Source: a virus (taxonomy: Duplodnaviria > Heunggongvirae > Uroviricota > Caudoviricetes). From it: a stretch of 16,054 nt of DNA. This document shows, piece after piece, positions 4,801 to 6,359 of the stretch; the stretch's first letter is position 1; every line of letters begins with the position of its first letter. Made by a program: the position numbers and the translations under genes. Where the stretch lies: IMG/VR virus record IMGVR_UViG_2585427735_000006, positions 1 to 16,054 of that record; one strand, given 5' to 3'. The notes under the pieces were generated by a model that was given only the letters and a program-made list of their open reading frames with translations, was not told the origin of the DNA and searched no databases.

Positions 4801-5544
4801 ATGACACAGACTGAATCAGCGATTCTGGCGCATGCCCGGCGGTGTGCGCCTGCGGAGTCTTGCGGCTTCGTGATAAGCACGCCGGAGGGTGACCGGTACC
4901 AGCCGTGTGTGAATATCTCTGCAGAGCCGGAGGCGTATTTTCGTATTGCCCCGGAAGACTGGCTGCGGGCACAGATGCAGGGGGAGATTGTGGCACTGGT
5001 CCACAGCCATCCCGGTGGCCTGCCCTGGCTGAGCGAGGCCGACCGGCGGCTGCAGATAAAAAGTGCCCTGCCCTGGTGGCTGGTCTGCCGGGGTGACATT
5101 CACAAATTCCGCTATGTGCCGCACCTGACCGGACGGCGCTTTGCGCACGGGGTGACGGACTGTTACACGCTGTTCCGGGATGCTTATCATCTGGCGGGGA
5201 CTGAAATGCCGGATTTTCATCGCGAGGATGACTGGTGGCGCAACGGCCAGAACCTGTACCTGGACAATATGGAGGAAACGGGCTTTTACCGGGTGCCCCT
5301 GTCCTCTGCACAGGCGGGCGATATTCTGCTGTGCTGCTTTGGTGCTTCGGTACCGAACCATGCCGTCATTTACTGCGGCAACGGTGAGCTGCTTCACCAT
5401 CTGCCTGAACAACTGAGTAAACGGGAGAGGTATTCCGAAAAATGGCAACGACGAACGCATTCTGTCTGGCGTCACCGCCACTGGCACGCATCTGCCTTCA
5501 CGGGGATTTGCAACGATTTGGCCGCCGCCTCAGCCTGTATGTGA
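4801..5544 (+). CDS. K: Tail tip assembly protein K (MPN/JAMM-like plus NlpC/P60-like regions)
   Basis: The ATG at 4801 opens MTQTESAILAHARRCAPAESCGFV…, which I recognise as the lambda gpK N-terminus. A JAMM-like motif (HSHPGGLPWLSEAD) is followed by a Cys/His region (GVTDCYTLFRDAYHLAG…NHAVIYCG). The 3' end overlaps I by 103 nt. The upstream part of the listed ORF (4540-4800) lies inside L and is not part of K. Confidence 0.85.
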   Translation: MTQTESAILAHARRCAPAESCGFVISTPEGDRYQPCVNISAEPEAYFRIAPEDWLRAQMQGEIVALVHSHPGGLPWLSEADRRLQIKSALPWWLVCRGDIHKFRYVPHLTGRRFAHGVTDCYTLFRDAYHLAGTEMPDFHREDDWWRNGQNLYLDNMEETGFYRVPLSSAQAGDILLCCFGASVPNHAVIYCGNGELLHHLPEQLSKRERYSEKWQRRTHSVWRHRHWHASAFTGICNDLAAASACM

Positions 5545-6122
5545 ACACGGCAGCGGAAGCCATTCGCGCCCTGTCGATGCAGATGCCGGGCTTTCGCCGT
5601 CAGATGAACGAAGGCTGGTACCAGATACGTATTGCCGGTGATGACACGGCACCGGAGGCGGTGTACGCCCGTCTTCACGAACAGCTGGGTGAGGGAACGG
5701 TCATCCACATTGTGCCGCGACTGGCCGGAGCCGGAAAGGGCGGACTGCAGATTGTGCTGGGGGCGGCAGCCATCGTGGGCTCTTTCTTCACGGCCGGTGC
5801 CTCGATGGCGTTATGGGGTTCAGCCCTGAGTGCCGGTGGTTTTTCTGCCACCACGATGCTGTTTTCACTGGGGGCCAGCATGATACTGGGCGGTGTGGCA
5901 CAGATGCTGGCCCCGAAGGCAAAAACACCGGATTACCGCGTAACGGATAACGGCAGACAGAACACGTACTTTTCCTCGCTGGATAACATGATTGCCCAGG
6001 GGAACCCGATGCCGGTGCCTTACGGGGAAATGCTGGTTGGCTCCCGCCGTATATCCCAGGACATCAGCACCCGTGATGAAGGCGGGGGCGGAAAGGTCGT
6101 GGTTATCGGGCGGCAGGGGTAA
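5442..6122 (+). CDS. I: Tail assembly protein I
   Basis: 226-aa ORF with a GGAGAGG ribosome-binding site upstream. The sequence (…LASPPLARICLHGDLQRFGRR…IHIVPR…QNTYFSSLDNM…) matches lambda gpI as I recall it. It has a hydrophobic Gly/Ala-rich central segment. Confidence 0.88.
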   Translation: MATTNAFCLASPPLARICLHGDLQRFGRRLSLYVNTAAEAIRALSMQMPGFRRQMNEGWYQIRIAGDDTAPEAVYARLHEQLGEGTVIHIVPRLAGAGKGGLQIVLGAAAIVGSFFTAGASMALWGSALSAGGFSATTMLFSLGASMILGGVAQMLAPKAKTPDYRVTDNGRQNTYFSSLDNMIAQGNPMPVPYGEMLVGSRRISQDISTRDEGGGGKVVVIGRQG

Positions 6123-6162
6123 AAAGAATAAAAAAATCCCGCAGTGATCGCGGAGCTGCGGG
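6121..6162 (-). terminator. Intrinsic terminator on the - strand: stem CCCGCAG/CTGCGGG (6138-6144 / 6156-6162) followed on the - strand by AUUUUUUUAUUCUUUUU
   Basis: A 7-bp GC-rich inverted repeat with an 11-nt loop. On the - strand it is followed at once by a long U-tract (the A-tract 6121-6137 on the + strand). Confidence 0.6.
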
Positions 6163-6222
6163 GACAGACAAAGATTAGAGTTAAGGAGTTGTTTTTGTTA
6201 CTCGGGCAAAAAACACTAACGC
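6125..6222 (-). ncRNA. Candidate small RNA (about 95 nt) bracketed by the - strand promoter and intrinsic terminator in the I-J intergenic insert
   Basis: Inferred transcript: GCGUUAGUGUUUUUUGCCCGAGUAACAAAAACAACUCCUUAACUCUAAUCUUUGUCUGUCCCCGCAGCUCCGCGAUCACUGCGGGAUUUUUUU. It has no start codon with a ribosome-binding site, a C/A-rich single-stranded-looking segment, and a terminal hairpin plus U-tract. Transcript ends are estimated, not measured. Confidence 0.4.
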
Positions 6223-6228
6223 AGCGAA

Positions 6229-6256
6229 ATTATACGCGCCACAGTCAGTTTGTGAA
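6229..6256 (-). promoter_or_regulatory. Sigma70-like promoter on the - strand: -35 TTCACA (6256..6251), 16-nt spacer, -10 TATAAT (6234..6229)
   Basis: Read directly from the reverse complement: a perfect -10 hexamer and a 5/6 match at -35 with 16-bp spacing. It points leftward toward the terminator at 6121-6162. Confidence 0.5.
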
Positions 6257-6294
6257 AATGTGAAGATATTCAGAAATTTTATTCCGTCATGACG

Positions 6295-6325
6295 CAGGCA
6301 CCCGGTGAGGTGCCTGTTGTTTTTG
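6295..6325 (+). terminator. Intrinsic terminator on the + strand, about 35 nt upstream of the J start: stem CAGGCACC/GGTGCCTG followed by TTGTTTTTG
   Basis: A perfect 8-bp GC-rich inverted repeat (6295-6302 / 6309-6316) with a 6-nt loop and a downstream T-rich tract. Confidence 0.6.
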
Positions 6326-6359
6326 TGAGTGAACAATTATCACGGTAAGAGGTGATGTA

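What the first reader, a model, noticed from the sequence alone, without database searches (positions are those of the whole stretch)
6121..6330. Candidate small RNA gene in an enlarged I-J intergenic insert
I and J are separated by 237 bp of non-coding DNA, much more than the short I-J gap I recall in lambda. On the - strand it holds a near-consensus sigma70 promoter (TTCACA, 16 bp, TATAAT) and, about 95 nt downstream, a GC-rich hairpin with a long U-tract. The bracketed transcript has no plausible ORF and contains a C/A-rich stretch (AACAAAAACAAC) that looks like an sRNA target or a decoy for a G/U-rich seed. Prophage-encoded regulatory and anti-sRNA 'sponge' RNAs are known in pathogenic E. 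coli; I cannot verify from memory whether this one matches any named RNA.
Basis: partly seen in the sequence, partly recalled or inferred. Interest (0 to 1): 0.7.

Follow-up and report, generated by a model that had tools for sequence, protein, structure and literature searches.

The report
Known prophage small RNA PasB

Summary
I (5442-6122) and J (6360-9833) are 237 bp apart, against 60 bp in lambda. The minus strand carries the only 11-of-12 sigma-70 promoter match in the whole 16-kb window (TTCACA-16-TATAAT, 6256..6229). About 90 nt downstream lies a 7-bp GC hairpin followed by seven U (6162..6130).

This is not a new RNA. It is an allele of PasB, found by Hfq RIL-seq in EPEC E2348/69 (Pearl Mizrahi 2021, table S6): same I-J position, same strand, same terminator. 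The published northern probe matches the window 23 of 23. The RNA is 75/83 identical to published PasB.

Published data show PasB depends on Hfq and is almost always the sRNA partner (RNA2) in chimeras with many mRNAs. None of the PasB rows I read involves GcvB, and predicted PasB-GcvB pairing is no better than chance. The decoy idea is therefore not supported.

My re-analysis places target complementarity on the unstructured centre of PasB. The window allele keeps the CA-rich part but has lost two of the three sub-seeds.

Relatives in other phages keep the promoter, leader and terminator but carry different seed modules.

Verdict: already known, low interest. PasB's biological role has not been worked out.

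The parts
5442..6122 (+). Tail assembly gene I, the upstream flank. The 3' end of the sRNA lies 8 nt past the I stop codon, on the opposite strand.
   Evidence: ORF list. Pfam Lambda_tail_I, E = 1.5e-16.
6130..6222 (-). PasB-type small RNA gene at its largest extent: predicted start about 6222, 3' end at the last U (6130). The published EPEC 5' end, taken from read coverage, corresponds to 6208 and gives a 79-nt RNA.
   Evidence: Alignment to E2348/69 (A1). PasB coordinates and the northern probe AATCCCGCAGTGATCGCGGAGCT, which matches 6136-6158 exactly, are from PMC8550237 table S6. Folds.
6229..6256 (-). Sigma-70-type promoter: -35 TTCACA (6256..6251), 16-nt spacer, -10 TATAAT (6234..6229).
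   Evidence: 11/12. It is the only match of at least 11/12 in the window, against 0.095 expected. It is kept in most alleles; one allele group has TTCTGT/TATCAT.
6166..6201 (-). Unstructured central region, the inferred seed region. It includes the (A-R-N)x4 stretch AACAAAAACAAC (6199..6188). The differences from EPEC PasB fall here: substitutions at 6182, 6179, 6178 and 6176, and a 4-nt deletion between 6173 and 6172.
   Evidence: The centroid fold leaves it unpaired. RIL-seq target regions are enriched for complementarity of 7 nt or more to the equivalent EPEC segment. Allele differences are from A1.
6130..6162 (-). Intrinsic terminator: stem 6162..6156 paired with 6144..6138, 11-nt loop, then U7 at 6136..6130. 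The U-tail is also the expected Hfq proximal-face site.
   Evidence: The stem arms are identical in all alleles while the loops vary.
6257..6290 (.). Highly conserved A/T-rich block upstream of the -35 hexamer, resembling an UP element. It contains a CRP-like half-palindrome, TGTGAAGATATTCAGA, at 6259-6274.
   Evidence: Nearly invariant across 52 sequences. Function is inferred only.
6294..6327 (+). Plus-strand terminator-like hairpin (6294-6317) with a U-rich tail GUUGUUUUUGUG, 33 nt upstream of the J start codon. It is a separate element and not part of PasB.
   Evidence: Folds at -18.1 kcal/mol, z = -3.3. One compensatory stem change, C-G to T-A, among relatives.
6360..9833 (+). Tail tip attachment gene J, the downstream flank.
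   Evidence: Six GpJ/tail-tip Pfam domains.

Best explanation
The insert carries an allele of pasB, a prophage-encoded small RNA that depends on Hfq and acts by base pairing.

In the lysogen, host RNA polymerase starts at the near-consensus minus-strand promoter and transcribes against the direction of the silent late tail operon. It stops at the hairpin plus U7, just past the end of gene I. The product is 79-93 nt: a long unstructured 5' and central part, then a terminator stem-loop.

Hfq is expected to bind the U7 tail on its proximal face. It may also bind the AAC-AAA-AAC-AAC (A-R-N) repeat on its distal face.

The unstructured centre then pairs with several mRNAs in trans. In EPEC it also pairs with RNAs from the holin-leader region of co-resident prophages.

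Shown by published experiment for the EPEC allele: the transcript exists, it depends on Hfq, it is more abundant in static LB than in DMEM, and it has many mRNA partners on Hfq.

Shown here: the window copy is that gene, and target complementarity maps to the central region.

Inferred: the regulatory outcome, the Hfq binding mode, and a changed target set for the window allele. That allele keeps the AAAACAACU sub-seed and the UUUGUCUGUCC core, but has lost UCCUUCACAUUGA and AUCUUCAUUUG.
For: Identity:
- The window gap aligns to E2348/69 at 97% column identity.
- PasB in table S6 of PMC8550237 lies between the same two genes on the same strand and ends at the same U7.
- The northern probe matches 23/23, and 75 of 83 RNA positions are identical.

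Expression and Hfq dependence of PasB.

Partners: PasB is RNA2 in every PasB row read but one. The partners are about 45 mRNA or intergenic regions, including E2348C_2648 (71 chimeras), the napF 5'UTR (70), map (67), yhhX (57), hflX (55) and fabR (50). The pasA/E2348C_0689 intergenic RNA gives 774.

Seed mapping, my analysis:
- Perfect complementarity of 7 nt or more from 13 target regions piles up on EPEC PasB nt 25-58.
- The maximum is 7 of 13 targets, reached by 0 of 300 target shuffles.
- Against 1000 shuffled sRNA cores the summed coverage is 176 versus 43 +/- 19, never reached, and P = 0.004 for the maximum.
- Examples are 11-nt matches to napF and fabR and 10-nt matches to rpoS and tolC.

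Structure: the centre is unpaired in the centroid fold.

Conservation: the promoter, the GCGUUA..U6 leader, the UAAUCUU linker and the terminator arms are conserved across 31 distinct alleles from IMG/VR and GenBank phages.

Distribution: the exact window allele (141 nt) occurs at 99% identity or more in 36 of 5,426 complete E. coli genomes, and related alleles occur in 1,445.
Against: - No expression data exist for this particular allele.
- The published 5' end, taken from read coverage, corresponds to 6208. That is 21 nt downstream of TATAAT, whereas the promoter predicts about 6222. Either the RNA is processed, or the mapping is imprecise, or a second start is used.
- No seed or regulated target of PasB has been validated by mutation in the papers held.
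- Target complementarity is spread over about 35 nt rather than one short seed, and I tested only 13 targets.
- The whole RNA is not unusually stable (z = -0.8). That is usual for sRNAs and gives no support of its own.
- The ARN/Hfq distal-face reading rests on general knowledge of Hfq, not on any test here.
Confidence: 0.82

Rival explanations
1. Anti-sRNA or sponge. The C/A-rich stretch mimics an mRNA target site and soaks up a G/U-rich sRNA seed such as GcvB R1, as AgvB does.
For: AACAAAAACAAC can pair with GcvB R1 (nt 64-93) at -15.2 to -15.9 kcal/mol. AgvB shows that prophage RNAs can act this way (PMC4104026). An ARN motif overlapping the pairing region is also a feature of AgvB.
Against: None of the PasB rows I read in EPEC RIL-seq involves GcvB, although the GcvB-SroC sponge pair is recovered about 1,000 times in the same tables. 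The activating sheet was read only in part. PasB is RNA2 with mRNAs, which is how an sRNA behaves. The predicted pairing is not better than with shuffled GcvB (z = +0.6 to +0.8). The GcvB target consensus CACAACA is absent. Other alleles of the locus replace the C/A stretch with unrelated sequence.
Confidence: 0.06
2. Cis-antisense regulator of its own phage's late operon. PasB is fully complementary to the I-J spacer of the late mRNA. Its CA stretch also matches a second copy of GUUGUUUUUGU in the J leader. After induction it could promote RNase III cleavage, uncouple I from J, or interfere with transcription. This reading does not exclude the trans-acting role.
For: The gene lies inside the late transcription unit on the opposite strand. 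The 11-mer GTTGTTTTTGT occurs twice in the window, at 6188-6198 (the PasB antisense) and 6316-6326 (the J leader), with none expected by chance. PasB's strongest RIL-seq partner by far is another phage late-region RNA, the holin leader of prophage PP2 (774 chimeras).
Against: The J-leader copy is invariant, while the PasB seed module differs between alleles, so the match is not kept across the family. In the lists I read, no S-chimera between PasB and its own I or J mRNA appears, although late mRNA is expected to be scarce in uninduced cells. Nothing here tests phage development.
Confidence: 0.12
3. No RNA function. The insert is recombination debris whose promoter-like and terminator-like sequences only insulate or terminate transcription between tail genes.
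For: The locus is strongly mosaic, with modules exchanged between phages. RefSeq annotates nothing there.
Against: An abundant Hfq-dependent transcript of matching size is documented for the near-identical EPEC allele. The promoter, leader and terminator are conserved across alleles whose middle parts differ. Target complementarity is far above chance.
Confidence: 0.03

Closest known systems
PasB (E2348CN_0006) of EPEC O127:H6 E2348/69, prophage PP6. Pearl Mizrahi et al. 2021 (PMC8550237); distribution study by Zhu, Shabalina and Storz 2026 (bioRxiv 10.64898/2026.05.13.724894).
   Same: Same locus (between tail genes I and J), same strand, same promoter, same terminator and U7, and the CA-rich stretch is identical. 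The probe site matches exactly. The window also holds the Rfam IS009 element that Zhu et al. report as typical of PasB flanks.
   Different: The window allele has four substitutions and a 4-nt deletion in the central region, and one U fewer in the leader. It keeps 75 of 83 positions and is 79 rather than 83 nt. By my mapping it has lost the sub-seeds that match napF, fabR, caiF, tolC and ydbJ. It is a minority allele: 36 of 1,445 positive complete genomes.
AgvB / AsxR / EcOnc03 anti-sRNAs of EHEC lambdoid prophages (Tree et al. 2014, PMC4104026; Rfam RF02702 and RF02703).
   Same: Encoded on a prophage, bound by Hfq, and built on a modular plan: a conserved terminator end joined to a variable pairing module. 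An A-R-N stretch overlaps the pairing region.
   Different: They sit at the PR' moron site, not in the tail operon, and are 51-60 nt long. Their conserved 3' part (GUAUCUCAUGC..UUGCCCGAACCCAYUCGGGC) is unrelated. There is no Rfam hit even at E <= 10. They act on sRNAs, whereas PasB's recorded partners are mRNAs and intergenic RNAs.
Other prophage-encoded Hfq sRNAs that act on core genes, such as Esr41 and DicF, named.
   Same: The general mode is the same: a horizontally acquired sRNA, expressed from a prophage, that pairs with core-genome and virulence mRNAs through Hfq.
   Different: No sequence relationship, different prophage locations, and these have validated targets whereas PasB has none.

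Membership tests
PasB sRNA | Sequence homology to the 83-nt E2348/69 PasB | tested here: met
   Alignment A1: 75 of 83 positions identical, with one 4-nt deletion. The promoter and terminator are identical apart from two promoter-region substitutions.
PasB sRNA | Position and orientation: between tail assembly gene I and tip gene J, antisense to them | tested here: met
   and table S6 of PMC8550237, which gives nearby genes E2348C_1436/1437 and the minus strand.
PasB sRNA | Target of the published northern probe AATCCCGCAGTGATCGCGGAGCT | tested here: met
   Exact 23/23 match at window 6136-6158.
PasB sRNA | Rho-independent terminator with a long U tract (U-tract 7 in table S5) | tested here: met
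   7-bp stem plus U7 at 6162..6130.
PasB sRNA | Expressed as an Hfq-dependent transcript of about 80 nt | not testable with these tools
   Shown only for the EPEC allele. No transcript data exist for the window allele.
AgvB/AsxR anti-sRNA family | Conserved 3' domain of about 42 nt, matching Rfam RF02702 or RF02703 | tested here: not met
   No hit in cmscan at E <= 10 over 6050-6420. The published AgvB, AsxR and EcOnc03 sequences share no similarity with it.
AgvB/AsxR anti-sRNA family | Location in the moron site downstream of PR', in a convergent sRNA pair, with a length of 51-60 nt | tested here: not met
   The element lies in the tail operon between I and J and is 79-93 nt long.
AgvB/AsxR anti-sRNA family | Pairs with and antagonises a core sRNA (AgvB carries the GcvB R1 target consensus CACAACA) | tested here: not met
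   CACAACA is absent. Duplex energy with GcvB is at chance level. None of the PasB rows read in the published RIL-seq tables involves GcvB.
Hfq-dependent base-pairing sRNA (general class) | Own promoter, intrinsic terminator with at least 6 U, an unstructured pairing region, and no ORF | tested here: met
Hfq-dependent base-pairing sRNA (general class) | Complementarity between the sRNA and its Hfq-ligated partners, above chance | tested here: met
   Tested on the EPEC allele: (sum 176 versus 43 +/- 19, reached by 0 of 1000 shuffled sRNA cores). In the window allele only the AAAACAACU part keeps this signal.

The most novel reading that the evidence does not exclude
The I-J gap of lambdoid Escherichia phages is a modular sRNA cassette. 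A fixed promoter, leader and terminator scaffold carries interchangeable pairing modules. I saw at least five module types and 31 alleles, including the Stx-phage versions, which the word-size-28 BLAST definition of PasB probably missed. If so, each phage lineage brings a different target set.

One purpose may be cross-talk between co-resident prophages. PasB's strongest partner in EPEC is the holin-leader RNA of two other prophages, and the window allele keeps the 9-bp core for that pairing while it has lost the sub-seeds that match several core genes.
Probability: 0.25. Interest if true: 0.55.

Novelty: already known. Interest (0 to 1): 0.22.

Why it matters
As a discovery it adds little. 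PasB was found by experiment in 2021 and its distribution was surveyed in 2026.

It has some value as a pointer:
- PasB still has no validated target or phenotype.
- Re-analysis of the published chimeras places pairing on a 35-nt unstructured centre with three sub-seeds. That gives specific mutations to test.
- Natural alleles differ exactly there, so strains carrying the window allele (mostly extraintestinal and avian isolates among the listed hits) may regulate a different gene set from EPEC.
- The locus is unannotated in RefSeq in about a quarter of complete E. coli genomes.

Tried and rejected
- Rfam: nothing in the gap at gathering thresholds, and only chance-level hits at E <= 10 (Ref84, Hrs1, Trp leader).
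- AgvB/AsxR identity: rejected on location, sequence and length.
- GcvB decoy: rejected, as set out above.
- Unrestricted RNAduplex of PasB against the target regions gave whole-length artefactual duplexes and was discarded. I replaced it with exact-complement profiling and windowed duplex scans.
- RNAalifold on the family alignment failed because MAFFT misaligns the terminator 5' arm between allele types.
- A covariation test of the terminator was not possible. The collection scans required the 3' arm exactly, and it is also invariant in the eight BLAST-derived sequences.
- The repeat finder missed the 11-mer repeat, probably through its low-complexity filter. The DNA search confirmed the repeat.
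- Phrase searches across table columns in the supplements returned nothing, because tabs are not matched.
- The RNAs of the PP2 and PP5 holin-leader regions have no Rfam match.
- Predicted pairing of the PP2 RNA with PasB is only modestly better than shuffles: -17.5 against -14.2 +/- 1.8 kcal/mol.
- I did not check whether the Stx-phage relatives carry an EcOnc name in Tree et al. table S2.

Full report
What is in the sequence

Pfam confirms the neighbourhood as a lambda-like tail module: K (JAB plus NlpC/P60), I (5442-6122), J (6360-9833), Lom, side tail fibre and tail fibre assembly. A DinI-like gene and an integrase follow on the other strand. The I-J spacer is 237 nt, against 60 nt in lambda.

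On the minus strand, TTCACA-16-TATAAT (6256..6229) scores 11/12. It is the only site that good in the 16-kb window, where shuffles give 0.095. Downstream, CCCGCAG/CUGCGGG forms a 7-bp stem with an 11-nt loop, followed by U7 ending at 6130 (-12.6 kcal/mol, z = -2.3). No credible ORF lies in between.

What it is

Rfam has no family for it. The 281-nt region matches 1,644 of 5,426 complete E. coli genomes and 149 GenBank phages, always between the I and J homologues and never annotated.

In EPEC E2348/69 the match is NC_011601.1 1466233-1466516. Table S6 of Pearl Mizrahi et al. 2021 (PMC8550237) places the sRNA PasB at 1466343..1466261 on the minus strand, 83 nt, between E2348C_1436 and E2348C_1437. 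Its northern probe is AATCCCGCAGTGATCGCGGAGCT. That probe is present exactly at window 6136-6158.

Aligning the two gaps (A1) puts the PasB 3' end on window 6130 and its 5' end on 6208. Within the RNA, 75 of 83 positions are identical. The differences are substitutions at 6182, 6179, 6178 and 6176 and a 4-nt deletion between 6173 and 6172. The element is an allele of pasB.

What is known about PasB

- It was detected by northern blot.
- It falls sharply in a delta-hfq strain (log2FC -6.8 in activating and -2.4 in non-activating conditions).
- It is more abundant in static LB than in DMEM.
- It ranks 15th by number of RIL-seq interactions, with 37.

Zhu, Shabalina and Storz (2026 preprint) found 1,158 PasB hits, confined to Escherichia and Shigella and embedded in the phage structural operon. 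They note that the function of the Pas sRNAs has not been elucidated, and their PasB seed is only predicted. I found no functional study in the held literature.

My scan of one genome per species found the family pattern only in E. albertii, plus one probable contaminant contig. That agrees with their host range.

How it most likely works

I read the PasB rows of the RIL-seq tables. For the non-activating condition I read the sRNA-sRNA block and the whole PasB block. For the activating condition I read only the start of the sheet.

In all PasB rows but one it is RNA2, the sRNA position. Its partners are mRNA coding regions and 5'UTRs, including E2348C_2648, napF, map, yhhX, the rpoS leader, hflX, fabR, bfpB, caiF, espC, ftsZ and tolC. 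The strongest partner, with 774 chimeras, is a plus-strand RNA in the pasA/E2348C_0689 spacer, which lies just upstream of a holin gene in prophage PP2. The equivalent region of PP5 gives 54. None of these rows involves GcvB.

I fetched 13 target regions and profiled perfect complementarity of 7 nt or more along PasB. It concentrates on nt 25-58 (AACAAAAACAACUCCUUCACAUUGAUCUUCAUUUG), the part that the centroid fold leaves unpaired.
- Up to 7 of 13 targets cover one position, reached by 0 of 300 target shuffles.
- With real targets and 1000 shuffled sRNA cores, summed coverage is 176 against 43 +/- 19, never reached.

Three sub-seeds stand out:
- AAAACAACU: E2348C_2648, yhhX, and shorter overlapping 7-nt matches in rpoS and yrdD-smg.
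- UCCUUCACAUUGA: napF 11 nt, fabR 11 nt, caiF 9 nt, map 7 nt.
- AUCUUCAUUUG: rpoS 10 nt, tolC 10 nt, ydbJ 9 nt.

The window allele keeps the first sub-seed. Its substitutions and deletion remove the other two. It also keeps UUUGUCUGUCC, the 9-bp core of the best predicted pairing with the holin-leader RNA (only modestly above chance).

As AAC-AAA-AAC-AAC it also fits the A-R-N motif that binds the Hfq distal face. That last point rests on established knowledge of Hfq and is an inference, not a test.

Pairing with GcvB R1 is possible (about -15 kcal/mol) but no better than with shuffled GcvB.

Family anatomy

Eight BLAST-derived gaps and 119 IMG/VR loci give 31 distinct RNA alleles.

Conserved parts:
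- an A/T-rich block and CTTCACATTTT upstream;
- the promoter, although one group has the weaker TTCTGT/TATCAT;
- the leader GCGUUA..U6-8;
- the linker UAAUCUU;
- the terminator arms, with free variation in the loop.

The roughly 25-nt module between leader and linker comes in at least five unrelated versions. Examples are GCCCGAGUAACAAAAACAACUCC (PasB proper), GUCGUGAYAUAAGAAUAAUUCC, CGGGCCAAUAAAAACAAAACUCC and GCCGUGACAUAAUAAUUCC.

Zhu et al. searched bacterial genomes with word size 28 and more than 75% query coverage. Their 'PasB' is therefore probably only the first group. That is the one modest extension beyond the literature. I did not check whether the Stx-phage versions already have EcOnc names.

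The window's exact 141-nt promoter-plus-RNA occurs at 99% identity or more in 36 complete E. coli genomes. A further 916 match at 90-95%, which I take to be the common PasB types.

Open points

1. The published 5' end, from read coverage, is 14 nt downstream of the start that the consensus promoter predicts. Possible reasons are processing, imprecise mapping, or a second start served by the conserved TAnnnT (TAGTGT), which ends 7 nt upstream of the base after the published 5' end.
2. A strong plus-strand hairpin with a U-rich tail (6294-6317; -18.1 kcal/mol, z = -3.3) sits between the pasB promoter and J. It shows one compensatory change. The single-step intermediates are mostly G-U on the plus strand (four or five sequences against one). 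Phages with a different J-proximal segment carry a different hairpin there. Its role in the late operon is unknown.
3. GTTGTTTTTGT occurs twice, once antisense to the PasB C/A stretch and once in that hairpin's tail. The match is not kept in the other allele types.

Verdict

It is the known sRNA PasB in a minority allele. The decoy mechanism is not supported. Interest is low, and rises only if the seed-swapping or inter-prophage reading is borne out.

Noticed in passing
window 13415-13613 (+): Full-length Rfam IS009 (RF02111) match, 220 bits. It lies entirely inside the tail fibre assembly ORF (13072-13656, Caudo_TAP), so it may reflect conserved coding sequence rather than a separate RNA. Zhu et al. 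list IS009 as a typical neighbour of PasB.
   Followed up: partly
window 6294-6327 (+): Plus-strand terminator-like hairpin with tail GUUGUUUUUGUG, 33 nt upstream of the J ATG and inside the late operon. It folds at -18.1 kcal/mol (z = -3.3), shows one compensatory C-G to T-A change among relatives, and the intermediates favour plus-strand G-U pairs. Phages with a different J-proximal segment (for example L038 and L027) carry a different hairpin, ACCCCGGTATC..GATACCGGGGT, at the same place.
   Followed up: partly
window 6188-6198 and 6316-6326 (+): The exact 11-mer GTTGTTTTTGT occurs only at these two places in the window, with none expected by chance. One copy is antisense to the PasB C/A stretch and the other lies in the J leader. 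PasB could therefore pair with the J leader, but other alleles do not keep the match.
   Followed up: partly
window 6259-6274: CRP-like site TGTGAAGATATTCAGA, one mismatch from TGTGA-N6-TCACA, centred about 44 nt upstream of the predicted start and conserved in all alleles. It would fit PasB being higher in LB than in glucose-rich DMEM. However, the window has 3 such sites against 0.53 expected, and the position is not a canonical -41.5.
   Followed up: partly
window 6208-6222 (-): The published PasB 5' end corresponds to 6208, 14 nt downstream of the start predicted from TATAAT. A conserved TAnnnT (TAGTGT, 6220..6215) ends 7 nt upstream of 6207, the base after the published 5' end, and could be a second -10.
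   Followed up: no
L142 283-455 (NC_011601.1 743482-743654, +) and L143: PasB's dominant RIL-seq partner (774 chimeras) is an unnamed plus-strand RNA that ends at a terminator just upstream of the holin gene of EPEC prophage PP2. A near-identical copy exists in PP5. Neither has an Rfam match. The best predicted pairing uses PasB UUUGUCUGUCC.
   Followed up: partly
L145 (NZ_JBHTEB010000006.1, 'Streptomyces flavalbus'): A 3.4-kb contig in a Streptomyces assembly carries the E. coli phage I-J sRNA locus. This is most likely contamination of the assembly.
   Followed up: no
window 13772-15590 (-): A DinI-like gene and a tyrosine integrase with an Arm DNA-binding domain lie on the minus strand directly after the tail fibre genes. 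The window therefore probably reaches the end of the prophage.
   Followed up: no
L012 (NC_011601.1 3102266-3102615): rpoS is annotated as frameshifted in the E2348/69 RefSeq record. The 'nlpD.E2348C_3010.IGR' partner of PasB and PasA in the RIL-seq tables is in fact the start of rpoS.
   Followed up: no
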